From NCBI GenBank assembly GCA_037128705.1, contig JBAXVX010000002.1, positions 78,361 to 142,360 of the forward strand: a stretch of DNA of 64,000 bases, in the 5' to 3' direction. The notes below the pieces were generated by a model. It was not told the DNA's origin and did not search any database. It saw only the letters and a program-made list of their open reading frames with translations. Position 1 is the stretch's first letter. Each line of letters begins with the position of its first letter. The translations under genes and the position numbers were made by a program. This document shows positions 49,255 to 61,249 of the stretch, one piece after another. The DNA comes from Bacteroidota bacterium (GTDB lineage: Bacteria; Bacteroidota; Bacteroidia; Bacteroidales; FEN-979).

Positions 49255-52200
49255 TCATTCAAAAATAAGGACAGAGGGGAATCTATCGGGGTAGGCCTGC
49301 CTGAGCAAGGCATAACCGATGCCCGAAATTCCCTGGAAGAAGCCAGGATTGATCATTCCTTCATCCGAACCGAATGACAGGTCGTAATGGCCGTTTTTTT
49401 CGGCGAAGTGAAGAACCTGGTTCGTTTTTTTACCTGCCTCCGTCATTAAAGCGCGATCCCCGGTCCTGGCGGCAAAGTACAAAAGTATGTCGGCAAGCCC
49501 CATGTTCCCGCAGCAGAGGTGATCCCTGAATCCCATGTTCATGGAGGATGCCCGTGTCGCCCGGATGGCATTCCGGATATCTGTCTCGACGGTTTGATTG
49601 TTAAAAATATGCCGGGAGGCCAGCCGGGCAAGACCAATCCCCGGGGCCCCATGGCACCAGCTCAGCATATAGGAGGTGCCTGTATTTGGCTTGTCTTTAT
49701 ACTCCCTGAGATCCTGCCAGTTATTCTTCTCCTGCGTAAACAGTGTATTCTCATACCGGATGGCCCGTTCGGCCGTGTCGCGGGAAGCAGCTGTTCCTGT
49801 GAATTCGAACAACTTCAAAAGAGCATAGGCGATGCCGGCCTGGCCGTGCGAAAACCCCGACAGCATTTTATTTCCCGCGAATTTCCATCCGCAGCTTCCA
49901 TCATTATTCTCTGTAAGGTTTTTCAGCAGGTGTTCGCCGCAAAGATCAGCCTTTTCCAGGGCTTCCTGATAGCCTGTAAGTTTGTACAGCGCCAGCATCC
50001 CCAAAATGCATCCGGCACTGCCTGAAATGATATCGAAGGTCTTGTCATCCTGTATCACCCGCGGCCCGACCATGTGACAAACCGATTTTGCATCTTCCAG
50101 GAATGAGGGGTCACCGAGAAATCCGGAAATTTTAATCAGCGTATAAATGGCCGAGGATATCCCGGAGGCAATTCCGATAAATCCGCCCGATCCGGTCATT
50201 CCATATTGCTTCATTTGGGCAAATCCCTGGCGAAGGGATTGGATGGTTGATTCATTTAACCTTCGCAGCGCCGGATCATCCTTTACCGACAAAAGCGCGG
50301 ATAAGAAAAGGGTGACACCCGGAAGCCCGTCATAAAGGTTAAAGGACATAGGCTGTAAACGGAACCGGTCTGTGCCGGGTATGATCCCTGAGGTGATCCA
50401 GGTACAACTGCCGTCCTTTGAAAAGATGGCTTCAGATTGCAGTTTTGCCGCAATTTCTGTTGCAGCCTTCATCAGCGTTTCCGCTGGTGCCGGTTGGATC
50501 GCCCGTGCTGTGATAACCTGTTTTTCTTCCCCTGTTTTGACCTGGTTGTGTTCTAAATCCCTGAAAAGCAGCGCAGCCCGGATGAATTTTACCTGTGTTT
50601 TAAGATCCTCTTCATTCATTTCCGAAACCGAATTTACAACCTGGTCATAGGCTGCTTTGATCATATAGTCAGGACAAACAATTCCATACGGATCCTTGAG
50701 ATCGGTCCTGCCTGATTCAGTCCAGAAAATAGGAAAATCCGTGTCTTCCATCTGCCTCATTTCCGATTTGTTCATGGACCAGAAACTGCCTGATTCCGGA
50801 TTGTGCAGGAATGCACGGCAAAGCATCTCTTTCTGCATGCTGCGCTCCAAACCTTTACGCATATAGTTCGGATTCATCAGGTTTTTGATGATCAACCCAT
50901 ATATCCGGGTCGCCCTGAAAATAAACCGCAGATCTTTTCCTTCAAACAGGCGGACGGGAATTTGAGTGCGATGTTTGACCAGCAACCGGTAAAGGGTGGT
51001 AAACCCCGAAACGATTTCTTCTGTATAGTTGACAGGGGGCTGTTTCCGACCTTGATAAACCGGGATATTCTGGTTTTCCTGGAAGACGATGGGCACGTAG
51101 GATATCCTCATGCTGTCGCTGTTGATATATTGCCACTCCATCCGCTGGTATGGAGATTCATCGTAATCATACCCTCCAATGCCACTGACATCGTAAACGA
51201 ATCCATCTTTACCGAGTATCCATGATGGTAAAAGGCCGGTGCGAAAAACAGAAAATTCAAATTGTGAATTGGCAAGAACATAGGCACTGTCTTCAAATTG
51301 GGTATCTATGTTTTTGCCTTCATGATGCATCACCGATTCAAGATCGATGAGCATAGGTTGTGACCCGGCAGCGATGAGGTTCTCCATGTGGCAATCATTC
51401 CCCCTCAGCGTGTAAATAATTCCGATGAGTGCACCAATACGCCTGTAATAATCCGTAATCTCCTGCCCTGATGTACAGTCTGAGGCCTCAATAAAGCCAA
51501 CCCATCCATATTCACCTTTACTGACAAGGTTGAGGGGTTTCATAGGAGGCGTCAGCCCTTTTTCGTTCAGCCAGTTTATGAAGGCTGACCATGCCACTTC
51601 CAGTGCGAGATTTTTTGGCTTGTAAATCAGTTTCAGCCCCGATTCAAATTTGATGGATATCACTCCCTGGCCATGGTTGTGCGAATCGGAGATCCCCCCC
51701 TGGTAACTTGTTAATTTTCCGGGTGCGGTATCCCTGACGAAATGGGTTGAAAGTTCAGCCATGTCATCCGACAGGTGGTGGATGAATGAAGCAGTGGTGC
51801 GTATCCAGTTGTCGATCAGTATGGTTATGATTTTGGCCAGGGCACTGTATTCAGCGAAGAAATCCTGCCAGCCGTTTTCAACAATCCGGCCAACAAATTG
51901 TTCATAAAAGTGAGTGCCCGGAACCTCAGCCGGAAGCGTCTCAGCCAGGATCCTGAACACCGAAGACTGACGGGTGCTTTTGAAGACCTCGAACTCCAGT
52001 TGAAAAGTCTTTGAAGTATAAAATTGCAACCTGCGCATCAGCAACAGGTTCATCATTTTTTCTGCCTCCCCCGAAAACAAATCCGTTTTCTTTTTCCCGA
52101 CATTCAAATCAAGTTTTTCAACAGCATAAAGAACCAGCGGGGTTAAAAGATGCTGGTAGGGAATTTTATCCGCATATTCCTCCCCGATGCACTGTTTCAT

Positions 52201-52539
52201 TTTCAAAGATAGATCCGTCGGATCATATGATTGAAGGAATCCGATCAGTTCCCTGAAGGTATTTATCCATGCCGGAAGCTGATCCTTATCCCTGAAAGAA
52301 ACCGTTCCGGCCAATTTCCCCAGGTCATCATCGGTAAGCCCGTCCATTTTCAGCCGGTTTTCGAACATCACGGGATCATCCGGGGCAACAATTTTTCTCC
52401 ATTCGGTTCGGAATTTTTCCACTTCCCCCTCTTTTGCCGGATGAAAAACAAACCGGTGCGGTTCATCGATTTTCTCTCGTAAGGTAATGGCCCTGGCGGC
52501 CACGTTGTGCCAGTAGGAATCAGGTAGTTCGGGCCTCAT
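49255..52539 (-). CDS. lanM: class II lanthipeptide synthetase LanM (dehydratase plus LanC-like cyclase), CCG zinc-site type
   Basis: Dehydratase-domain motifs DSHNHGQGVISIKFESGLKLIYKPKNL and NDCHMENLIAAGSQPMLIDLES. Cyclase motifs SGFSHGQAGIAYAL, SWCHGAPGIG and HLCCGNMG. Start taken at MRPELP (ATG 52539-52537), which forms an ATGA overlap with the upstream stop. The longest ORF extends to 52605. Confidence 0.9.
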   Translation of the reverse strand: MRPELPDSYWHNVAARAITLREKIDEPHRFVFHPAKEGEVEKFRTEWRKIVAPDDPVMFENRLKMDGLTDDDLGKLAGTVSFRDKDQLPAWINTFRELIGFLQSYDPTDLSLKMKQCIGEEYADKIPYQHLLTPLVLYAVEKLDLNVGKKKTDLFSGEAEKMMNLLLMRRLQFYTSKTFQLEFEVFKSTRQSSVFRILAETLPAEVPGTHFYEQFVGRIVENGWQDFFAEYSALAKIITILIDNWIRTTASFIHHLSDDMAELSTHFVRDTAPGKLTSYQGGISDSHNHGQGVISIKFESGLKLIYKPKNLALEVAWSAFINWLNEKGLTPPMKPLNLVSKGEYGWVGFIEASDCTSGQEITDYYRRIGALIGIIYTLRGNDCHMENLIAAGSQPMLIDLESVMHHEGKNIDTQFEDSAYVLANSQFEFSVFRTGLLPSWILGKDGFVYDVSGIGGYDYDESPYQRMEWQYINSDSMRISYVPIVFQENQNIPVYQGRKQPPVNYTEEIVSGFTTLYRLLVKHRTQIPVRLFEGKDLRFIFRATRIYGLIIKNLMNPNYMRKGLERSMQKEMLCRAFLHNPESGSFWSMNKSEMRQMEDTDFPIFWTESGRTDLKDPYGIVCPDYMIKAAYDQVVNSVSEMNEEDLKTQVKFIRAALLFRDLEHNQVKTGEEKQVITARAIQPAPAETLMKAATEIAAKLQSEAIFSKDGSCTWITSGIIPGTDRFRLQPMSFNLYDGLPGVTLFLSALLSVKDDPALRRLNESTIQSLRQGFAQMKQYGMTGSGGFIGIASGISSAIYTLIKISGFLGDPSFLEDAKSVCHMVGPRVIQDDKTFDIISGSAGCILGMLALYKLTGYQEALEKADLCGEHLLKNLTENNDGSCGWKFAGNKMLSGFSHGQAGIAYALLKLFEFTGTAASRDTAERAIRYENTLFTQEKNNWQDLREYKDKPNTGTSYMLSWCHGAPGIGLARLASRHIFNNQTVETDIRNAIRATRASSMNMGFRDHLCCGNMGLADILLYFAARTGDRALMTEAGKKTNQVLHFAEKNGHYDLSFGSDEGMINPGFFQGISGIGYALLRQAYPDRFPSVLIFE

Positions 52540-53600
52540 TTTGCAGATTCTTGACCGGTTGTTACTTTCTGTGGATTGATCATGGTTCCGAAATATCCCT
52601 TGCACTCCGGGGGCATTCCTGGCTTATATACCAGTTTAAGGTGATTGATACCGTTCATATAGTGAACCGGAACGAGGTACGAAACGGTTTTTTTACTGGT
52701 ATAGCTTGTCAGTCCCTCCCTCTTTTCCCGGAGCAGGAGATTTTCAGCCTCGAGAAAATCGAAAATTTCGTTCCATCTCGGGTCCCACCTGGGCTGGCTC
52801 AAATCCTTAAGATACATCTCTATTCCGAAAACGGGAAGCACTGTTTTCCCAATGTGAAGATTACAGGAAAAGTGATCAAATTTTAAAGCATAGTTTGTAA
52901 CCATTTTTTGGATCACATCCATCTCCCCGGGCCACCGGATATCCTTTAAATATTCAATGAATGAATCTTCCCTGAGCCTCGAAAGAATGAGTCGGACGGC
53001 TTCTGTTTTCCTGGGGATCATAAACCCTAAAATAGAAATAACCGCATGCTGCGGGAGTGCCTCAAAGCATCTTTTCAGGTTTCTGCCCAAACCGGCTGGA
53101 AATTTTATCCCAAAAAGGATCCGGTATATTTCATCCAGTACTTCAAGCACAAAAAGCCATTGGGATCTCCTGGGGGCTTCCTTTTCAATAATTTTGAAAA
53201 ATATGTTCGGGATTGGATTGAAGGCTGATTCCATGCAGTCGAATTCGAGCCAGAATGATTCAATCCGTTCATGGAGAAAAGAAGAAGCATCTGTCCAGGC
53301 TGAGAAAAGTTCTGAGATTTTTTGCCAGAAAGGGATGCTTAACAATGACGGGGATAACATGGATACCTTGCTTTTACCGGCAATTATGCCGGCTCCTTCA
53401 CCCTCTTTTCTGATCTGCAGGAAAAAATCGCAGGTGGCTTCCCGGTTTCCTAAACGCGTTTCGAAACCGAAGTCTGTTGCAGCGTCGAACGGGAACATGG
53501 AACAAAGTTCTTCGACCGCATGAAGATGCCCGGGAGCAAGCAAAGCGGGCGAAATCCCGGGTGTAATGGCTGAAAAGTGATCACGGAAAGAGTATTTCAT
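52536..53600 (-). CDS. uncharacterised 354-aa protein translationally coupled to lanM
   Basis: Its TGA stop (52538-52536) overlaps the lanM ATG. No signal peptide, TM helix or classic cofactor motif. Shows repeated short strand-like motifs (CDFFLQIR, SFWLEFD, VRLILSRL, FSCNLHIG, FGIEMYLK, LKLVYKPG). Confidence 0.7.
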   Translation of the reverse strand: MKYSFRDHFSAITPGISPALLAPGHLHAVEELCSMFPFDAATDFGFETRLGNREATCDFFLQIRKEGEGAGIIAGKSKVSMLSPSLLSIPFWQKISELFSAWTDASSFLHERIESFWLEFDCMESAFNPIPNIFFKIIEKEAPRRSQWLFVLEVLDEIYRILFGIKFPAGLGRNLKRCFEALPQHAVISILGFMIPRKTEAVRLILSRLREDSFIEYLKDIRWPGEMDVIQKMVTNYALKFDHFSCNLHIGKTVLPVFGIEMYLKDLSQPRWDPRWNEIFDFLEAENLLLREKREGLTSYTSKKTVSYLVPVHYMNGINHLKLVYKPGMPPECKGYFGTMINPQKVTTGQESAK

Positions 53601-53650
53601 CTGAATGATATTGTTTTACGTTATTGGCAAAGAATCCCGGGTTTATAATT

Positions 53651-53658
53651 CAAATGTA
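53651..53658 (-). promoter_or_regulatory. candidate Bacteroidota -7 promoter element (TAnnTTTG) for the 354-aa gene/lanM operon
   Basis: The minus strand reads TACATTTG, about 50 nt upstream of the ATG at 53600. I saw no clear -33 TTTG. Confidence 0.3.
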
Positions 53659-53670
53659 ACAACTAATTCC

Positions 53671-53678
53671 TAGTTTTG
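53671..53678 (+). promoter_or_regulatory. candidate Bacteroidota -7 promoter element (TAnnTTTG) for the export operon
   Basis: The plus strand reads TAGTTTTG, about 25 nt upstream of the ATG at 53703. Confidence 0.3.
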
Positions 53679-53702
53679 TATGAATTCTAATGCAACAAGG
53701 AA

Positions 53703-54509
53703 ATGCTTAGCCGCCAGATTTTCAGAAAAACCTCTCTTGAAAAAATGACCAACATGGATGACCTGGATGAATTGCTCCAGGTTAATTCAATAAAGACATG
53801 GTTATTGTTTTCAGGTATTTGTGCAGTTCTGGCAGGGATGCTTGCCTGGGGATTCCTTGGTACGATCTCTCATAATGTCCAGGGATTCGGCATCATAAAA
53901 ACGCAGGCCCCCTGGAGGGAAGTTCTGGCAGACCGTTCGGGGCAGATTGACTCCATCTTTTGCAATACAGGCGACAGGATTGCGACGGGACAGAAGATGG
54001 CCACGATCTTCGAACTGGAAAATAAGACCTATGTGCCGATCAATTCCCTGGTCCCCGGCCAGGTGGTGGCCATCAATGTAAGGGAGGGAACCTATGTAAC
54101 CAAGGGAACTTCTTTGTTTGAATTAATGCTGGCTGACAAGCAAACGAAGAAACAACCCGAGGTGATTTTCTTCATCGTTGAAAGGGAGGTATCAAAGCTG
54201 AAAAAGGGAATGTTCTGCAACCTCCAGGTTGACAAGCAGGGAGTCCCGCCTGAACTATTAAATGCAGTCATCACTTTCATCTCCGATTATTCGGTTTCGA
54301 AAAATACCATCTCAAAGTATTTCCCGGGTGGGGATATGTCGGATGATATTGGCGACAAGGATTTCTATGAAGTAAGGGCATTTCTGAAGGTTGATCCTGA
54401 TGGGTCGCCGAACCTGGCAAACTTTGACCTCAGTAAATTAAACTGGCTGACCTGCAGGGTAAACATCACCGTTGAACGAAAAAGTCCCATCGCCTTCCTT
54501 TTCAAATAA
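53703..54509 (+). CDS. NHLP/NHLM-type bacteriocin secretion adaptor (HlyD-like), short form without alpha-hairpin
   Basis: The N-terminus FRKTSLEKMTNMDDLDELLQVNSIKTWLLFSGICAVLAGMLAWGF matches the characteristic start of this family. The two half-lipoyl motifs are separated by only about 10 residues. Confidence 0.7.
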   Translation: MLSRQIFRKTSLEKMTNMDDLDELLQVNSIKTWLLFSGICAVLAGMLAWGFLGTISHNVQGFGIIKTQAPWREVLADRSGQIDSIFCNTGDRIATGQKMATIFELENKTYVPINSLVPGQVVAINVREGTYVTKGTSLFELMLADKQTKKQPEVIFFIVEREVSKLKKGMFCNLQVDKQGVPPELLNAVITFISDYSVSKNTISKYFPGGDMSDDIGDKDFYEVRAFLKVDPDGSPNLANFDLSKLNWLTCRVNITVERKSPIAFLFK

Positions 54510-54533: not shown

Positions 54534-56732
54534 ATGAATCTGAATCCCATCAACCTCCTCCGCACTGTGTATCACCGTCTGACCGGAACCAGGCGGGTTA
54601 AAACCCCGACGGTTTTGCAGATGGAAGCGCTTGAATGCGGAGCTGCATCGCTGGGCATTGTGCTGGCCTATTATGGTAAATATGTACCACTGGAAAAACT
54701 GCGGGTCGATTGCGGCGTATCACGCAACGGGAGCACTGCCGGCAACCTGACTAAAGCTGCACGGAGCTATGGCCTCGAGGTGAAGGCCTATAAAAAGGAA
54801 CCTGAGAAACTCAGGGAGTTGCGCGCCCCGATGATCGTTTTCTGGAACTTTTACCATTTCCTGGTTGTTGAAGGCTTCGGGAAAAATAAAGTGTACCTCA
54901 ATGATCCCGCCTCTGGTCCGCGCGTGGTGGATGACAAAACCTTTGATCACTCTTTCACCGGGGTGGTGATGACCTTCGAACCCGGACCCGGTTTTCAGCC
55001 CGGTGGTGTAAAACCCAGGTTCCTTCCCACCCTGAAGAAATGGCTGAAAGGTTATTACTACAGCCTGCTTTTCCTTTTCCTGGTCGGACTGGCCCTGATC
55101 ATTCCCGGGTTGGCGATCCCGATCTTTTCCAAAATCTTTGTAGACCAGATCCTGATCAAAAACTCAGAATCGTGGATCATCCCCCTTCTGGTTGGACTTA
55201 CGCTTACAACCCTGCTGCGTGCAATGTTATCGTGGATACAGCAGCACAGCCTGATCCGGTTTGAGATTAGCATTTCGCTGAAGAACGCTTCAAAGTTCTT
55301 CTGGCATCTGCTTCATCTGCCCATGTCATTTCATACCCAGCGTCCGGCGGGCGATATCACCATGCGTATTGGGATCAATGACCAGGTTGCGGGGTTGCTT
55401 TCAGGCCAGCTTGGAAACACCCTGCTCAATCTCTTCATGATCGTATTTTATGCGATGCTGATGTTTTATTACAGCATTCCGCTTGCACTGATTGCCATCG
55501 CCATATCCTTGCTGAATATCCTGGCCCTGCGGTTCATTTCGCGTAAACGGGTCGATTCAAATCAAAAGCTGCTACAGGATAACGGTAAAATGTACGGCCT
55601 TTCATCGGCCGGCCTGCAGATGATAGAATCAATCAAGGCCAATGCCTCTGAATCAGATTTTTTTGCCAAATGGGCCGGGTACCAGACCAAACTGCTGAAC
55701 ATGCAGCAAAAACTGGGCATACTCACCCAAACCCTGCAGGTAATCCCCGTATTTCTTACCATGATGAGTACCCTGATCATCCTGGTCATGGGATCAGGAT
55801 TTATCATCGACGGGGTGATGACCGTTGGAACCTTTGTTGCATTCCAGTCGGTAATGGCAAGTTTCAACCAGCCGATTGTCTCCCTGGTAAACCTTGGAAG
55901 CTCACTGCAGGATGTCCAGGGCGGGCTGAAAAGGATCGATGATGTATACAATTATCCTGCTGCCGGTACGAATATATCGGCTGGAGAAACAGCAGCCGTC
56001 AATAAAATGGTGAAGCTCCAGGGATATATTGAGCTGAAAAATATCACCTTTGGATACAGCCCGCTGGAATCGCCCCTGATCACCAATTTTTCGCTCAGCC
56101 TGAAACCGGGGTCCCGGGTAGCCATAGTGGGCAGGACCGGCTGTGGAAAATCAACCCTGGCCAACCTGGTCAGTGGTCTGTACGATCCGTGGGAAGGTGA
56201 GATCCTGCTGGATGGCAAACGCAGGGCTGATATCCCCCAGGCTACCCTGAGTAATTCCATATCCATGGTCGATCAGAACCTTTTCCTGTTCGAAGGCAGC
56301 GTAAAAGATAATATCTCCTTCTGGGATCAGACCATCGCAAACAAGGATATCATCCAGGCAGCCAAAGAGGCCTGCATCCATGATGACATCGCCGCGCGAC
56401 CGGCTGCCTATGAGAGTCATGTTGAAGAGAATGGAAAAAATTTCAGCGGGGGCCAGCGGCAGCGCATTGAAATAGCAAGAGCGCTGGCAGCCAAGCCATC
56501 CATTCTTATTCTCGATGAAGCTACCAGCGCCCTGGATGCACAAACAGAGCAGGCGATCGATATCAACATCCGGAAAAAAGGCTGTACCTGCCTCATCATT
56601 GCGCACCGGTTAAGTACCATCCGCGATTGCGATGAAATCATCGTGATGAGTCTTGGACGGATCGTTCAGCGCGGGACCCATGAGGAATTAATGAGAAAAA
56701 TAGGATTATACCAGGACCTGATAAAAGAATGA
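54534..56732 (+). CDS. bacteriocin/lanthipeptide export ABC transporter with an N-terminal C39 peptidase domain (LanT/NHLM ABC1-like)
   Basis: C39 motifs LQMEALECGAASL (catalytic Cys), NFYHFLVVEG (His) and LNDPA. Six-TM domain. Walker A GRTGCGKST, signature FSGGQRQR and Walker B ILILDEATSALD. Confidence 0.9.
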   Translation: MNLNPINLLRTVYHRLTGTRRVKTPTVLQMEALECGAASLGIVLAYYGKYVPLEKLRVDCGVSRNGSTAGNLTKAARSYGLEVKAYKKEPEKLRELRAPMIVFWNFYHFLVVEGFGKNKVYLNDPASGPRVVDDKTFDHSFTGVVMTFEPGPGFQPGGVKPRFLPTLKKWLKGYYYSLLFLFLVGLALIIPGLAIPIFSKIFVDQILIKNSESWIIPLLVGLTLTTLLRAMLSWIQQHSLIRFEISISLKNASKFFWHLLHLPMSFHTQRPAGDITMRIGINDQVAGLLSGQLGNTLLNLFMIVFYAMLMFYYSIPLALIAIAISLLNILALRFISRKRVDSNQKLLQDNGKMYGLSSAGLQMIESIKANASESDFFAKWAGYQTKLLNMQQKLGILTQTLQVIPVFLTMMSTLIILVMGSGFIIDGVMTVGTFVAFQSVMASFNQPIVSLVNLGSSLQDVQGGLKRIDDVYNYPAAGTNISAGETAAVNKMVKLQGYIELKNITFGYSPLESPLITNFSLSLKPGSRVAIVGRTGCGKSTLANLVSGLYDPWEGEILLDGKRRADIPQATLSNSISMVDQNLFLFEGSVKDNISFWDQTIANKDIIQAAKEACIHDDIAARPAAYESHVEENGKNFSGGQRQRIEIARALAAKPSILILDEATSALDAQTEQAIDINIRKKGCTCLIIAHRLSTIRDCDEIIVMSLGRIVQRGTHEELMRKIGLYQDLIKE

Positions 56733-56739
56733 TCAAACC

Positions 56740-59649
56740 ATGAAAAACAACCCCTTTGCGGAAGCCATGCTTACACTGGGTACCCCCGGAAAAACCGGGG
56801 CGAACCAGTCTTTTACCATGGCCCATCTTCAAAGTGTGTGGTATGTAACCAAAGGGCATATCGACCTCTTTTCCGTGCGGCTTGAAAATGATCAGCCGTC
56901 GGGGTCAAGGTTCTTTCTGTTTACAGCCAGCCAGGGGGAACTCCTTTTTGGAATGCGGAGTGATCAGTTTGGAAATGAGCAGGCCCTGCTTGCGGTTCCA
57001 TCAACCGATGCTGAGATCATCGTGACCGGGATTGACCAGGTTAAGGAGCTGATAAAGCGACCGGGGTTTTTTGATACCGGGGTGTCGCTGATTGAAACCT
57101 GGATTGGTCATTTGTTATCCGGAATTTCCAAGGATCTGAATTCACGCACCGACGTGATGATTGATTCTGACACAGTGTTCACGCTGGAAGACAACATGAA
57201 GTTCCGCTCAAAAAAAGGGCTATTCTGGGTCGAATTTCTGTCGGGGAATGCATTGTTCCTTGGAATGAGGGAGATTCGGGACAACAGCGAACGGAAAAAA
57301 TTCCCGGTCTCCCAGGATTCATGGCTTCAAACAACAGAATCATCCGATATCAGATCCTGCAAGACCGGTGAACTTTTACTCCAGGATGATTTCTGGGATC
57401 ACATGGAAAATTTCTACCAGGTGATCTTCTACTGTGACTTTTTGAATACAAACCTGATGACGGTTGATGAATTCAACCGCCTCAGCGAAAAAGCGGTTCA
57501 CGATTCAAATATCCTTTCCGCTTCCCTTTTTAAAATAGCCTCTGTTATCAATGATAACATCCGGAAAACTTACATTGAGGCCGGCGTGAATCCATTGGTT
57601 TCAGCATGTAAGGCGGTGGCCGGTTATGCCGGCATTTCCGTTACCTTGCCGCCCAGGCCTAAAAGCGATGATGCGCCTCCTTTAACCCTGAACGACATCG
57701 CCCATGCCTCACGGTTCAGGACAAGGAAGGTGAGACTTGCCGGCGATTGGTGGAACAAGGACAACGGCCCGCTGCTTGCCTTCACCAGGGACAGCGACTT
57801 TCCCATTGCCCTGATACCCAAGTCGCCGGGAAAATATGAGTATATCAGTCCGGCCGAGAATTTAAAACAATTGCTAACGGCTGAATCCGCCTCATTGCTG
57901 GCTGCAGAAGCCCGCCAGTTTTACCGGCCCTTTCCCGACCGTCCCATCAAGGTTCTGGATCTGATCAGGTTCAGCTTTAAAAATTCCATCCGGGATATTA
58001 TGCTGATGATTCTGGTAGGAGTGGCAGGAGGCATACTGACCATATTGGTTCCCATGCTAACCGGGACCATCTTTGACAGTGTCATTCCCAAATCAGATTA
58101 CACCCAGCTTTACGTTTACGCCCTTGCGCTCTTTTTCAGTTTTGTTGCCATAGCGATTTTTCAGCTGGTACGCAGTTTTTCCATGATCAGAATTGAAACG
58201 AAACTCGATTTCCTGCTTCAGTCGGCCATCTGGGACCGGCTGCTCAACCTGCCTGTCCCGTTTTTCAGAAAATACCAGGCCGGGGAACTGGCAGCCAAGG
58301 CAAACAGCATCATGATGCTCCGCAAGATCCTTTCAGATACGGTGATCTACAGTGTGCTGGGCTCTGTTTTCCTGGTATTCAACTTCATTCTCATGTTTTT
58401 TTATGATGCCTCCCTGTCGCTTTATATCTTAGGCTTCTCCCTGTTATCCTATATTTTCATCTTCTTTGTCGGGAAAAAGATCCAGAAACGGCAGTATCTT
58501 ATCATTCAGCTGAACAACAAGATTTTCGGGATGCTGCTGCAGCTGTTGTCCAGTATCTCCAAAATCAAGATCGCGGGTGCTGAAATTCATGCATTTTCTC
58601 AATGGGCTGAAAAATATGCCACAAACAAGCGTCAAACCTATGAAGTAAGAAAACTGAATCAGTGGATTTCGTTGCTCACTACTTTGTGGCCGCTCCTGAT
58701 TACGATCTTTGTTTTTGCCACCATCGCCTGGCAGGTCCCGCATACCCTGTCAACTGGTGAGTTCCTGGCATTCTATACCGCCATGACTACAACCATCGCT
58801 TCATTTCTTCAGCTGGGGATGGCCGGCATTGCACTTTTCATGGCGATGCCCTTACTGGAAAACATTCGTCCGATACTGGAAACACTCCCGGAAAATGTTT
58901 CCTTAAAAGCCGAAATAAAGGAACTTTCGGGCGAAATCGAGGTGAACAATGTAAGCTTCAGGTACCAGCCCGATGGTCCGCTTGTGCTGGATAACGTTTC
59001 GTTGCAGGTACAACCCGGTGAATTTGTAGCCATCGTGGGGACATCCGGTTCCGGAAAATCAACCCTGCTTCGTTTACTGCTTGGTTTTGAAACCCCCGAA
59101 AGCGGTTCTGTCTATTACGACCGGCAGGATCTCTCCACATTCGACCCTGCTTCGGTGAGACGACAGGCGGGAACTGTTCTTCAGCAAACACAGCTGGCTC
59201 CCGGTAACATCCTGACCAACATTACGGGAGTGACCGATGCTACCTTCGAGGATGCCTGGGAGGCTGCCAGAAGTGTGGGACTGGACGAAGACATCAAGCA
59301 GATGCCCATGGGAATGTATACCGTGATCACCGGTGGCCTCAGCACGATCTCAGGTGGCCAGAAACAACGCATCATGATCGCCCGGGCTATTGTCAACAGG
59401 CCCCGGATCCTCTTTTTCGATGAAGCAACAAGCTCCCTGGATAATAAAACTCAGTTTACAGTAAGCGCCAGTCTCGAAAAACTACAGGCATCCCGTGTTG
59501 TGATTGCCCATCGTCTTACCACCGTACAGCACGCCGACAGAATCTACGTTATGGATCACGGTAAGATCGTTGAATCCGGATCATTCGCCGAATTGATTGA
59601 AACAGGAGGAAAATTCAATGAGCTGGTGAAGCGCCAGATGGTTGAATAA
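56740..59649 (+). CDS. second bacteriocin-system ABC transporter (permease/ATPase) with a ~400-aa N-terminal extension including a cNMP-binding-like fold (NHLM ABC2-like)
   Basis: 969 aa. The N-terminus (HIDLFSV...GSRFFLFTASQGELLFG) resembles a cyclic-nucleotide-binding beta-roll. TM domain, Walker A GTSGSGKST, signature ISGGQKQR and Walker B ILFFDEATSSLD. Starts 7 nt after the previous gene. Confidence 0.85.
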   Translation: MKNNPFAEAMLTLGTPGKTGANQSFTMAHLQSVWYVTKGHIDLFSVRLENDQPSGSRFFLFTASQGELLFGMRSDQFGNEQALLAVPSTDAEIIVTGIDQVKELIKRPGFFDTGVSLIETWIGHLLSGISKDLNSRTDVMIDSDTVFTLEDNMKFRSKKGLFWVEFLSGNALFLGMREIRDNSERKKFPVSQDSWLQTTESSDIRSCKTGELLLQDDFWDHMENFYQVIFYCDFLNTNLMTVDEFNRLSEKAVHDSNILSASLFKIASVINDNIRKTYIEAGVNPLVSACKAVAGYAGISVTLPPRPKSDDAPPLTLNDIAHASRFRTRKVRLAGDWWNKDNGPLLAFTRDSDFPIALIPKSPGKYEYISPAENLKQLLTAESASLLAAEARQFYRPFPDRPIKVLDLIRFSFKNSIRDIMLMILVGVAGGILTILVPMLTGTIFDSVIPKSDYTQLYVYALALFFSFVAIAIFQLVRSFSMIRIETKLDFLLQSAIWDRLLNLPVPFFRKYQAGELAAKANSIMMLRKILSDTVIYSVLGSVFLVFNFILMFFYDASLSLYILGFSLLSYIFIFFVGKKIQKRQYLIIQLNNKIFGMLLQLLSSISKIKIAGAEIHAFSQWAEKYATNKRQTYEVRKLNQWISLLTTLWPLLITIFVFATIAWQVPHTLSTGEFLAFYTAMTTTIASFLQLGMAGIALFMAMPLLENIRPILETLPENVSLKAEIKELSGEIEVNNVSFRYQPDGPLVLDNVSLQVQPGEFVAIVGTSGSGKSTLLRLLLGFETPESGSVYYDRQDLSTFDPASVRRQAGTVLQQTQLAPGNILTNITGVTDATFEDAWEAARSVGLDEDIKQMPMGMYTVITGGLSTISGGQKQRIMIARAIVNRPRILFFDEATSSLDNKTQFTVSASLEKLQASRVVIAHRLTTVQHADRIYVMDHGKIVESGSFAELIETGGKFNELVKRQMVE

Positions 59650-59689: not shown

Positions 59690-61249
59690 ATGACAACATC
59701 CGTCACATCCTTTTCTCAGCTTCAGTTATCCATCCTGCTGCTGGCTACCATTGGCTTCCTCTCCAGCCTCTGGTTCCATGTCAGGGATAAAGAAAACCTG
59801 GCGATTGGATTACTGGTTCTCACTGCATTCTTGGTTTTCAGCTTTGCAGCCCTCCTCGATCCATTCCTGAACCTGTGGGATGAACGGTTCCATGCACTGG
59901 TCGGAAAGAACCTGATGAACCATCCATTCATGCCAACCCTGTATGACGACCCGGTGGTCAGCATGGCCTACGACCATTGGGATAATTACCATATCTGGAT
60001 TCACAAGCAACCGCTGTTTTTATGGCAGATCGCACTTAGTTTCAAACTCTTTGGAATTTCAGAGTTTTCATTACGGATTCCCGACATCATTTTAGGGATG
60101 ATCCTCGTGTTCATCGGATACCGTTCAGGGAAGTTGCTTGTAAATAAAAACGTGGGGTATCTCACGGGAATTCTGACCATTTCCACAATTTACCTGACCG
60201 AACTGGTATCGGGAAGGCAGGAGATAGACCACAATGATTTTTCGTTTCTCGTCTATGTTTCACTGAGCATCTGGTCGCTGATAGAATATCATTTTACAAA
60301 AAAGAGATACTGGATCTTTCTTATCGGGGCGTTTTCGGGGATGGCGATCCTGTGTAAATGGGTGGTGGGATTCCTCGTCTTTCTGGGGTGGTTTGTCCTG
60401 AAACTGCAGCAAAAAAGGTTCAGGCCGTCGCACTATTATGATTTCCTGGTTGCCTTGGGAATAACCTTGCTGATGGCCGTGCCGTGGCAGGTATATACCT
60501 TTATCTGTTACCCGAAAGAGGCCATCCAGGCCTTTACCATGAATACATCGCACTTTCTTTCGGCTGTGGATGGACACCGGGGCACCCTGTTGTACCATTT
60601 CGAGAAGGCCGGCACCATTTATGGCCTCGTGATGTCATTGTTGATCATTCCGTCCTTATATGTTTTTTACAGGAACAGCAGGGATAAGATGGTGGCCGTC
60701 TCACTGCTTGTCATGGTCATTGCGGTTTATCTTTTTTTCACCATCACCGCGACAAAAATGTCCTCCTTTACAGTGGTGGTATCCATGGTCATATTTATTG
60801 CCCTGGCGGCCCTGATTGACCATGCTGTCCAATATACAAACCGGTATATCAAAAAACCGGGAGCCAGGAGCCTGCTGTTCGCGGGACTCATCATTTTAAT
60901 TGTTCTCCTGCGATTTGATATTGGACTTCTCCGGGAGAGGCATACAACCCGGAATGAGGAAAACCATTACACCCGGATGCTCATGCACAACCGGGAAGTT
61001 TTTAAATCGCTCAACCTGCCCGATAATGCTGTGCTGTTCAATGTGAAAGGAAGGCATTACCTCGAAGCCATGTTTTACACCGGACTGCCCGCCTACAATT
61101 TTATCCCAACCAGAGATCAGTACCAGGACTTAAAATCGAAAGGACGCTGCATCGCAATATTCAGACCGGCCGATCTCCCGCTTCCGGATTATCTTTCCAC
61201 CGATCCCACCACCATCATCCTGAACAAGGAAATAACAGGATACGATTAA
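59690..61249 (+). CDS. GT-C fold glycosyltransferase (GT39 PMT / ArnT-like), polytopic membrane protein
   Basis: Twelve or more TM helices. The first-loop DE motif LWDERFHALVGKNL (D64 E65 at 59879-59884) is typical of the PMT/ArnT family. Starts 40 nt after the ABC gene on the same strand. Confidence 0.7.
   Translation: MTTSVTSFSQLQLSILLLATIGFLSSLWFHVRDKENLAIGLLVLTAFLVFSFAALLDPFLNLWDERFHALVGKNLMNHPFMPTLYDDPVVSMAYDHWDNYHIWIHKQPLFLWQIALSFKLFGISEFSLRIPDIILGMILVFIGYRSGKLLVNKNVGYLTGILTISTIYLTELVSGRQEIDHNDFSFLVYVSLSIWSLIEYHFTKKRYWIFLIGAFSGMAILCKWVVGFLVFLGWFVLKLQQKRFRPSHYYDFLVALGITLLMAVPWQVYTFICYPKEAIQAFTMNTSHFLSAVDGHRGTLLYHFEKAGTIYGLVMSLLIIPSLYVFYRNSRDKMVAVSLLVMVIAVYLFFTITATKMSSFTVVVSMVIFIALAALIDHAVQYTNRYIKKPGARSLLFAGLIILIVLLRFDIGLLRERHTTRNEENHYTRMLMHNREVFKSLNLPDNAVLFNVKGRHYLEAMFYTGLPAYNFIPTRDQYQDLKSKGRCIAIFRPADLPLPDYLSTDPTTIILNKEITGYD

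What the first reader, a model, noticed from the sequence alone, without database searches (positions are those of the whole stretch)
49507..49656. LanM cyclase domain has an all-Cys (CCG) zinc site like ProcM
The expected zinc-ligand motifs read SWCHGAPG (Cys984, codon 49654-49656) and HLCCGNMG (Cys1031-Cys1032-Gly, 49507-49515). The second motif is CCG rather than the usual CHG. The CCG variant is the hallmark of the ProcM-type clade of LanM enzymes. That clade is known for processing many diverse precursors with Nif11/NHLP-type leaders, often encoded away from the synthetase. This fits both the NHLP-type exporter here and the absence of a cis precursor.
Basis: partly seen in the sequence, partly recalled or inferred. 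Interest (0 to 1): 0.6.

Follow-up and report, generated by a model that had tools for sequence, protein, structure and literature searches.

The report
ProcM-like all-cysteine zinc site LanM
This gene encodes a lanthipeptide-making enzyme whose ring-forming zinc site has three cysteines instead of two cysteines and a histidine; that places it in the already known ProcM-like group, so it is a well-supported but ordinary new member from a Bacteroidales-type bacterium.

Summary
Window 49255-52605(-) encodes a class II lanthipeptide synthetase (LanM). Its motifs SWCHGAPG (Cys984) and HLCCGNMG (Cys1031-Cys1032-Gly1033) lie at the stated codons. They align with the zinc ligands of CylM (Cys875, Cys911, His912), LicM2 and ProcM (Cys924, Cys970, Cys971), so Cys1032 replaces the usual His ligand.

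In a 55-row maximum-likelihood tree built without the motif columns, all 43 CCG enzymes form one side of a branch (99/98 support). This group includes ProcM, the window enzyme and a second LanM from the same genome. The window enzyme sits in an all-CCG, mostly Bacteroidota subclade and is only 26% identical to ProcM.

The genome has no Nif11 precursors. It has six NHLP-leader precursors with GG cleavage sites, all outside the window. Five of the six cores have Ser/Thr and Cys.

Orthologous loci carry 0, 1 or about 11 NHLP precursors in cis. Across 77 LanM loci, full NHLP or Nif11 precursors flank 44 of 60 CCG enzymes and 0 of 17 enzymes of the CHG sister clade.

CCG LanMs with NHLP/Nif11 substrates are already described, so novelty is low. 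The coupled 354-aa gene folds as an ABBA prenyltransferase, which is also a known pairing.

The parts
49255..52605 (-). lanM, a class II lanthipeptide synthetase. The ORF runs from the GTG at 52605, but the likely real start is the ATG at 52539-52537, giving 1094 aa.
   Evidence: TIGR03897 scores 851.6 bits against a cut-off of 304. Pfam finds DUF4135 at residues 253-629 and LANC_like at 752-1114. Orthologues are 1094 aa.
50719..51849 (-). Dehydratase (kinase-like, DUF4135) domain, residues 253-629.
   Evidence: Pfam E = 7.7e-111. D307, H309, D404, H406, N409, D421 and R560 align with CylM D252, H254, D347, H349, N352, D364 and R506 (alignment; the residues targeted by mutagenesis are listed). 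All are invariant or nearly invariant in A1.
49264..50352 (-). LanC-like cyclase domain, residues 752-1114.
   Evidence: Pfam PF05147 E = 9.9e-65.
49846..49848 (-). His920 codon in the SGFSHG motif, the conserved LanC-type active-site His.
   Evidence: Invariant in A1. It aligns with GFSHG of ProcM, SalM and other sequences.
49654..49656 (-). Cys984 codon (SWCHGAPG), the first zinc ligand.
   Evidence: Aligns with CylM Cys875 and ProcM Cys924.
49507..49515 (-). Cys1031-Cys1032-Gly1033 codons (HLCCGNMG). These are the second ligand, the third ligand (Cys in place of His) and the conserved Gly.
   Evidence: Align with CylM Cys911-His912 and ProcM Cys970-Cys971. Invariant in A1.
52536..53600 (-). 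354-aa gene translationally coupled to lanM, predicted to be an ABBA-fold prenyltransferase.
   Evidence: No Pfam or NCBIfam hit. The AF2 model has pLDDT 92.1. The top 43 Foldseek PDB hits are all ABBA prenyltransferases, including IptA, PriB, EpzP, AmbP3, PagF and LimF. A 47%-identical paralogue lies beside the second LanM. It sits immediately upstream of lanM in the orthologous loci.
53601..53702 (.). 102-nt divergent intergenic gap. This is the position where a 73%-identical orthologous locus carries its NHLP precursor gene. It is empty here.
   Evidence: Sequence read.
53703..54509 (+). Short (268-aa) HlyD-like adaptor of the NHLP exporter.
   Evidence: Partial TIGR03794 match, below cut-off. 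Pfam finds HlyD_D23, HlyD_3 and Biotin_lipoyl_2. The length is also 268 aa in orthologous loci.
54534..56732 (+). NHLP-family bacteriocin export ABC transporter with an N-terminal C39 leader peptidase.
   Evidence: TIGR03796 scores 1056 bits against a cut-off of 853. Peptidase_C39 covers residues 24-151. The Cys (ALECGAAS), His (YHFLVV) and Asp (NDPASG) motifs are present. It is the only copy in the genome.
56740..59649 (+). Second NHLP exporter ABC subunit, a permease/ATPase with a long N-terminal extension.
   Evidence: TIGR03797 scores 851 bits against a cut-off of 709.

Best explanation
The gene encodes a functional class II lanthipeptide synthetase of the CCG (ProcM-like) clade.

Proposed mechanism. 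The N-terminal kinase-like domain phosphorylates Ser/Thr in a precursor's core and eliminates the phosphate to give dehydro-residues. The C-terminal LanC-like domain holds one zinc ion, bound here by Cys984, Cys1031 and Cys1032 (three thiolates instead of Cys-Cys-His). The zinc activates core cysteines for Michael addition, which forms the thioether rings.

Proposed substrates and downstream steps. The substrates are long NHLP-leader peptides. None is encoded next to the enzyme in this genome. Six unlinked genes elsewhere are the candidates. A translationally coupled ABBA prenyltransferase probably lipidates the product. The divergently transcribed exporter (C39-ABC, second ABC, short HlyD) cleaves after the GG motif and exports it.

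Shown here: domain identity, conservation of catalytic residues, ligand-column identity, clade placement, the precursor inventory and the architecture of orthologous loci.

Inferred: that the three Cys actually bind zinc, which of the six peptides this enzyme modifies (as opposed to its paralogue), prenylation, and any link between the Cys3 site and relaxed specificity.
For: - The LanM family score is far above cut-off and both domains are full length.
- Seven dehydratase residues match those mutated in CylM.
- The ligand columns align with CylM, LicM2 and ProcM.
- CCG monophyly, including ProcM and this enzyme, has 99/98 support with the motif columns excluded. The quick tree gives 98.
- The ProcM anchor is secure. 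Genome G353 is a single 2,410,873-bp contig with 38 scattered Nif11 hits. Its precursors have prochlorosin-like cores, and its ligand numbering comes out as 924/970/971.
- The genome has six NHLP precursors and no Nif11 precursors. Five of the six cores have Ser/Thr spaced 2-7 residues from a Cys.
- It has only one NHLP exporter set, and that set is adjacent to this lanM.
- Orthologous loci have NHLP precursors in cis, either one or about 11 with hypervariable Cys/Ser/Thr cores.
- Both leader subtypes seen in this genome flank a single LanM in locus L038.
- Full NHLP or Nif11 precursors flank 44 of 60 CCG loci and 0 of 17 CHG-clade loci.
- The literature calls CCG the ProcM-like signature with three zinc-binding residues (PMC8524650; PMC10783134; PMC12328550).
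Against: - There is no biochemical evidence. Zinc binding by Cys1032 is inferred from homology.
- The enzyme is only 26% identical to ProcM, less than its 30% identity to one CHG-clade enzyme.
- A second LanM (58% identical), with its own prenyltransferase paralogue and a neighbouring precursor, could be the enzyme that serves some or all of the six peptides.
- One precursor core (TANWGGPGQGT) has no Cys and cannot form a lanthionine.
- Three precursors sit beside AbiEii-like nucleotidyltransferase paralogues, which may belong to another modification route.
- The genome is a draft of 80 contigs (98% complete), so linkage between contigs is unknown.
Confidence: 0.85

Rival explanations
1. The CCG motif is only an inherited clade marker here. 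The enzyme would be a narrow-specificity LanM that lost its single cis substrate, in effect an orphan or one dedicated to one or two peptides. On this reading the scattered NHLP peptides are mostly substrates of the paralogous LanM2 or of other enzymes.
For: - A 73%-identical orthologue has exactly one cis precursor, and another orthologue has also lost it.
- LanM2 on C14 has an adjacent precursor, and a LanM remnant on C16 lies 2 kb from another.
- Three precursors lie in the same neighbourhood as AbiEii-like genes (two directly beside one, the third about 3 kb away), and two of these neighbourhoods also hold a C10 peptidase gene.
- There are only six precursors in total.
Against: - All catalytic residues of the gene are intact. 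It remains translationally coupled to the prenyltransferase gene and paired with the genome's only NHLP exporter. An orphan would not be expected to keep these features.
- A member of the same 13-row subclade has about 11 hypervariable precursors.
- The C1 precursor's leader is 65% identical to the cis precursor of the orthologous locus.
- Both leader subtypes surround a single LanM in L038.
Confidence: 0.25
2. Cys1032 is not a metal ligand in this protein. The zinc site would be two-Cys plus water, or non-functional, making the cyclase domain weakened or degenerate, as in some clade members with Asn or Tyr at this position.
For: Three cyanobacterial members nested inside the CCG clade have Ser/Cys-Asn or Cys-Tyr at the ligand columns (L012, L015, L037). 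So the position can drift.
Against: - Cys984, Cys1031, Cys1032, Gly1033 and His920 are invariant across 23 diverse clade members.
- They are present in 91 of the 94 sequences in the clade.
- The surrounding DHLCCGN context is identical to ProcM's DHLCCGS at all but the last of its seven residues.
Confidence: 0.05

Closest known systems
ProcM (Prochlorococcus MIT9313) and SyncM, the promiscuous marine cyanobacterial LanMs
   Same: They have the same two-domain LanM architecture and the same Cys/Cys-Cys ligand columns (ProcM C924/C970/C971). They fall in the same CCG clade. Their substrates have long structured leaders ending in GG and are encoded partly or wholly away from the enzyme (for MIT9313; here).
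   Different: Identity to ProcM is only 26%. The leaders here are NHLP, not Nif11. There are six candidate substrates shared with a paralogue, against 35 Nif11 hits above cut-off in MIT9313. The host is a Bacteroidales-type bacterium. The enzyme is coupled to a prenyltransferase and to an NHLM-type three-part exporter.
Cyanobacterial and other multi-phylum CCG LanMs with Nif11/NHLP precursors (for example the Nostoc sp. ATCC 53789 plasmid LanM, L093)
   Same: They are closer in sequence (35%) and have the same motif. An annotated Nif11-like precursor and a C39 ABC transporter lie next to the Nostoc enzyme. NHLP or Nif11 precursors lie in cis at 44 of 60 such loci.
   Different: The window enzyme belongs to a separate, mostly Bacteroidota subclade with 100% support. 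It has no precursor in cis.
MppM/MppC, a lanthipeptide synthetase plus leader-dependent ABBA prenyltransferase from Moorena producens (PMC12715784)
   Same: A class II LanM is paired with a soluble ABBA prenyltransferase, and both act on a long-leader precursor. The fold of the 354-aa partner matches ABBA prenyltransferases.
   Different: The window's partner has no detectable sequence-family match, and its substrate residue and prenyl donor are unknown. The MppE leader is Nif11-like. Homology between the window's partner and MppC was not tested here.
OspM/DprM, characterised NHLP-modifying LanMs (PMC12537861)
   Same: They are class II LanMs acting on NHLP-leader precursors.
   Different: Their zinc-site type and their relationship to this enzyme were not examined here. 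The paper reports that they cluster apart from ProcM and SyncM in a similarity network.
CylM, LicM2, LctM and SalM, classical CHG LanMs of Firmicutes
   Same: They have the same fold and the same catalytic residues in both domains.
   Different: They have His at the third ligand position and short leaders, with cis precursors. Identity is 23-24%. They fall outside the CCG clade.

Membership tests
Class II lanthipeptide synthetase LanM (TIGR03897) | Full-length match to the family model above the curated cut-off | tested here: met
   851.6 bits against a cut-off of 304, covering profile positions 2-932 of 932.
Class II lanthipeptide synthetase LanM (TIGR03897) | N-terminal kinase-like dehydratase domain with the catalytic Asp/His/Asn/Arg residues defined in CylM | tested here: met
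   DUF4135 E = 7.7e-111. D307, H309, D404, H406, N409, D421 and R560 align with CylM D252, H254, D347, H349, N352, D364 and R506.
Class II lanthipeptide synthetase LanM (TIGR03897) | C-terminal LanC-like cyclase domain with a zinc-ligand triad and an active-site His | tested here: met
   PF05147 E = 9.9e-65. C984, C1031, C1032 and H920 lie in the ligand and His columns.
Class II lanthipeptide synthetase LanM (TIGR03897) | Catalyses dehydration and thioether cyclisation of a precursor peptide | not testable with these tools
   This needs expression and mass spectrometry.
ProcM-like (CCG) LanM clade | Cys-Cys-Gly instead of Cys-His-Gly at the second ligand motif, in the columns of ProcM Cys970-Cys971 | tested here: met
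   MAFFT columns of C1031 and C1032 hold C970 and C971 of the MIT9313-type enzyme. CylM has His912 in the second of these columns.
ProcM-like (CCG) LanM clade | Phylogenetic placement with ProcM, apart from CHG enzymes | tested here: met
   In the 55-row LG+C20 tree built without the motif columns, the CCG group is one side of a branch at 99/98, in 99% of bootstrap trees. The 114-row tree gives 98.
ProcM-like (CCG) LanM clade | Substrates carry long Nif11- or NHLP-type leaders with a GG cleavage site | tested here: inconclusive
   The genome has six NHLP precursors, and orthologous loci have NHLP genes in cis. That this particular enzyme modifies them is inferred, not shown.
ProcM-like (CCG) LanM clade | One enzyme serves many diverse precursors, some encoded far away | tested here: inconclusive
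   There are six diverse cores, none in the window, and the nearest is about 62 kb from lanM on the same contig. A second LanM shares the pool. A subclade member has about 11 in cis.
ProcM-like (CCG) LanM clade | Zinc physically coordinated by three cysteine thiolates | not testable with these tools
   This needs metal analysis, EXAFS or a crystal structure.

The most novel reading that the evidence does not exclude
The mostly Bacteroidota CCG subclade may be a distinct combinatorial system. In it, a Cys3-zinc LanM and a translationally coupled, sequence-orphan ABBA prenyltransferase would act together, in trans, on a dispersed and fast-evolving pool of NHLP precursors. The pool includes a conserved Cys-free, Trp-containing core (T-x-x-W-G-G-P-G-Q-G-S/T) that can be prenylated but not cyclised. 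Such a system would give anaerobic Bacteroidales a library of lipidated lanthipeptides and linear lipopeptides exported through one shared NHLM transporter.
Probability: 0.3. Interest if true: 0.5.

Novelty: new member of a known kind. Interest (0 to 1): 0.3.

Why it matters
The finding adds a Bacteroidales-type MAG, and a well-supported, mostly Bacteroidota subclade, to the known ProcM-like CCG lanthipeptide synthetases. The signature (three Cys ligands, long NHLP/Nif11 leaders, precursors often in trans) holds outside cyanobacteria. For annotation, lanM loci without a nearby lanA in such genomes should not be called orphan until the whole genome has been scanned for NHLP/Nif11 genes. For natural-product discovery, the LanM-prenyltransferase pair and six short cores are a small, tractable set for heterologous expression. 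The finding does not change how these enzymes are understood.

Tried and rejected
- Several key papers were not held: Zhang et al. 2012 PNAS, PMC4245175, PMC4111213 and PMC4487812. ProcM's ligand numbering, the MIT9313 genome size and the recognition of a prochlorosin core (AACHNHAPSMPPSYWEGEC) therefore rest on my memory. corroborate them.\n- The supplement of PMC8524650 (alignment of CCG enzymes) was not held.\n- ProcM was not among the best 80 loci of the genome-contig scan. I recovered it by scanning 400 cyanobacterial genomes for LanM and picking genomes of about 2.4 Mb.\n- My first home-made NHLP profile drifted in round 2. It called short 'IIRAWKDEEYR'-type leaders beside CHG-clade enzymes as NHLP. 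After tightening the threshold these were separated as a different, shorter leader type.\n- I looked for a precursor remnant in the 102-nt gap and found none.\n- I considered horizontal acquisition. LanM is rare in the order, with 2 of 201 genomes above cut-off. The PDB alignment served for CylM.
Full report
**Observation.** The minus-strand ORF 49255-52605 translates to a 1116-residue protein. It contains SWCHGAPG and HLCCGNMG. The ORF is numbered from a GTG. The more likely start is the ATG at 52539-52537 (Met23). It overlaps the stop codon of the upstream gene as ATGA and gives 1094 aa, the length of most orthologues.

**What the protein is.** It matches TIGR03897 (type 2 lanthipeptide synthetase LanM) at 851.6 bits against a cut-off of 304. 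Pfam finds DUF4135 (dehydratase) at residues 253-629 and LANC_like at 752-1114. The PDB sequence search finds LicM2 (6ST5, E = 6e-75) and CylM (5DZT). From that alignment, D307, H309, D404, H406, N409, D421 and R560 correspond to CylM D252, H254, D347, H349, N352, D364 and R506. These are the residues probed by mutagenesis in the CylM paper (primer list). All are invariant or nearly invariant among 23 relatives. The enzyme looks fully functional.

**Are the cysteines in the ligand columns?** CylM binds zinc through Cys875, Cys911 and His912 (PMC4550811). In one search, SWC(984)HGAPG aligns with CylM SWC(875)KGTVG, and DHLC(1031)C(1032)G aligns with DCLC(911)H(912)G. LicM2 aligns the same way (WCHGAPG; SLCHG). 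So Cys1032 occupies the His-ligand position.

I then recovered ProcM itself. A LanM scan of 400 cyanobacterial genomes found genome G353. It is a single contig of 2,410,873 bp, which is the published size of Prochlorococcus marinus MIT9313 as I remember it. G353 has 38 scattered Nif11-leader hits, 35 of them above cut-off. Its precursors have the MSEEQLKAF...GVAGG leader and cores such as AACHNHAPSMPPSYWEGEC, which I recognise as a prochlorosin. With the start at residue 17 of the open frame, the aligned ligand columns read Cys924, Cys970 and Cys971. That is the numbering I recall from the ProcM literature. The local context is nearly identical: DHLCCGN in the window and DHLCCGS in ProcM.

**Phylogeny.** I combined four sets of sequences:
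- the window enzyme and its paralogue;
- 25 database homologues;
- LanMs from 80 named genomes;
- four picocyanobacterial LanMs including ProcM, plus SalM, LctM and a Streptomyces LanM from plasmids.

The ligand columns were removed before tree building.

In the 114-row quick tree, all 91 CCG enzymes fall in one clade with SH-aLRT 98. Three members with degenerate sites are nested among them. The clade is separate from a 17-row CHG clade (cyanobacteria, Acidobacteriota, Myxococcota, Chloroflexota) and from the Firmicutes enzymes.

In a careful 55-row tree (LG+C20 PMSF), the 43 CCG rows form one side of a branch at 99 ultrafast bootstrap / 98 SH-aLRT, and in 99% of bootstrap trees.

The window enzyme lies in a 29-row, all-CCG subclade (support 100). 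The few named members of this subclade are mostly Bacteroidales and Prolixibacteraceae MAGs. T9SS sorting domains in neighbouring genes fit a Bacteroidota host. The enzyme is only 26% identical to ProcM, 35% to a Nostoc CCG enzyme and 30% to one CHG-clade enzyme. ProcM sits on a long branch, so 'ProcM-type' here means a broad clade.

**Precursors.** A whole-genome search found no Nif11 leader above noise. It found six NHLP leaders at 80-90 bits against a cut-off of 50.9. A regular-expression scan for the (D/E)L..(D/E)L..V(A/S)GG leader end found the same six and nothing more. None is in the window. Their locations are:
- C12:192580-192864, about 62 kb from lanM;
- C14:56950-57270;
- C14:69754-70098;
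- C47:13907-14221;
- C1:113672-113980;
- C16:8536-8847.

The cores after the GG site are RAEDSVLICTVFGCPPPGDPGG, SFLDCMTFVTACGGPQCQ, QQEILIFPPESTQNYYGCGG, GGAYGGTDGGCS, NMYSIGCEYT and TANWGGPGQGT. Five of them pair Ser/Thr with Cys at spacings of 2-7 residues. The last has no Cys. The leaders are 46-80% identical to each other.

**A second enzyme.** The genome holds a second LanM on C14 (65254-68544), which is 58% identical and also CCG. It also holds a LanM fragment on C16. LanM2 has its own paralogue of the 354-aa partner, and the Cys-free precursor lies beside it. The six peptides are therefore a pool shared by two enzymes. Which enzyme takes which peptide cannot be settled by computation.

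**Orthologous loci.** A 73%-identical orthologue (L094/L095) has the same divergent layout: ABC2, C39-ABC1 and the 268-aa HlyD-like gene on one side, and the 363-aa partner and LanM on the other. It carries one 107-aa NHLP precursor exactly where the window has its 102-nt gap. Another orthologue (P0005) lacks the precursor, like the window. A third (L096) has about 11 tandem NHLP precursors with near-identical leaders and hypervariable Cys/Ser/Thr cores. Cis-precursor number is therefore labile in this subclade. In L038, both leader subtypes found in this genome surround a single LanM. The NHLM exporter next to the window lanM is the only one in the genome.

I built leader profiles from these NHLP genes and from the MIT9313-type Nif11 genes, then scanned the ±6-kb flanks of 77 LanM loci. 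Full-length NHLP or Nif11 precursors flank 44 of 60 CCG enzymes and 0 of 17 enzymes of the CHG sister clade. Eleven of those 17 instead have short 'IIRAWKDEEYR'-type leaders. Fisher p = 2e-8, uncorrected for shared ancestry. Sixteen of the 60 CCG loci have no such precursor within 6 kb, so a locus without a precursor in cis is not unusual. The literature calls CCG the characteristic ProcM-like motif with three zinc-binding residues and proposes that it contributes to promiscuity. NHLP-modifying LanMs have been characterised.

**Surroundings.** The 354-aa gene coupled to lanM has no family match. It has 74 homologue clusters; the few that carry a source name are Bacteroidota or Bacteroidales MAGs. 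Its AF2 model (pLDDT 92) matches only ABBA prenyltransferases in the PDB (top 43 hits). LanM plus a leader-dependent ABBA prenyltransferase is a described pairing, MppM/MppC.

**Verdict.** The gene is a new member, from a poorly explored host group, of the known CCG (ProcM-like) LanM kind. Zinc coordination by three thiolates, the substrate assignment and any effect on promiscuity remain inferences. Interest is modest.

Noticed in passing
window 52536-53600 (-); paralogue at G000 C14:68668-69708: The 354-aa gene coupled to lanM by an ATGA overlap has no Pfam or NCBIfam match. It folds with high confidence (pLDDT 92) as an ABBA prenyltransferase. It has 74 homologue clusters; the few that carry a source name are Bacteroidota or Bacteroidales MAGs. 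It lies directly upstream of lanM in the three orthologous loci examined.
   Followed up: yes
G000 C14:69754-70098 and L038:1856-2167: This NHLP precursor has a core with no cysteine (TANWGGPGQGT). The core is conserved in another Bacteroidales MAG (TGWGGPGQGS). It lies beside LanM2 and its prenyltransferase paralogue. It cannot form a lanthionine, so it may be a prenylation-only or dehydration-only substrate.
   Followed up: partly
G000 C14:59006-64037, C12:192949-196754, C16:8892-10016: Three paralogous AbiEii-like nucleotidyltransferase genes of about 370 aa lie near three of the NHLP precursors. Two of them are accompanied by C10 (streptopain-like) peptidases of about 870 aa with T9SS tails. 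One is accompanied by a squalene-hopene-cyclase-like 385-aa protein. This may be a second processing or modification cassette for NHLP peptides.
   Followed up: partly
G000 C16:5811-6316: A frameshifted remnant of a third LanM matches residues 474-605 and 1080-1116 of the window enzyme. It lies about 2 kb from the C16 NHLP precursor.
   Followed up: no
L012, L015, L037 (cyanobacterial LanM loci): Three enzymes nested inside the CCG clade have degenerate ligand columns: Ser/Cys-Asn in L012, and Cys-Tyr in L015 and L037. L015 also has Cys in place of the active-site His. These are possibly cyclase-dead LanMs.
   Followed up: no
L057, L063, L076, L082 and other CHG sister-clade loci: The CHG clade closest to the CCG clade (cyanobacteria, Acidobacteriota, Myxococcota) is flanked by arrays of short-leader precursors sharing an 'IIRAWKDEEYR...LPE(H/N)P(A/S)G...GG' leader. 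The start of this leader resembles the NHLP 'IEKAMKDE.FR' segment.
   Followed up: partly
L094:7557-7880 and L096:3896-8886: In the orthologous loci almost every core begins with Tyr straight after the GG cleavage site (YGDG, YDDS, YEPK and others). This conserved aromatic could be the prenylation site. The six cores of this genome do not share it.
   Followed up: no
window 53703-54509: The HlyD-like adaptor is only 268 aa, against 421 positions in the NHLM HlyD profile. The length is the same in orthologous loci, so it is a conserved short form, not a truncation.
   Followed up: partly
window 59690-61249: A PMT_2/ArnT-like GT-C glycosyltransferase (519 aa) follows the second ABC gene by 40 nt. 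A 39%-identical paralogue lies on C20. It is absent from the orthologous loci, which have a Pirin gene beyond the ABC genes.
   Followed up: no
order-level genome sample: LanM is rare in the host's order. Only 2 of 201 sampled genomes score above the family cut-off, so the distribution is patchy. GC content of the locus does not stand out.
   Followed up: partly
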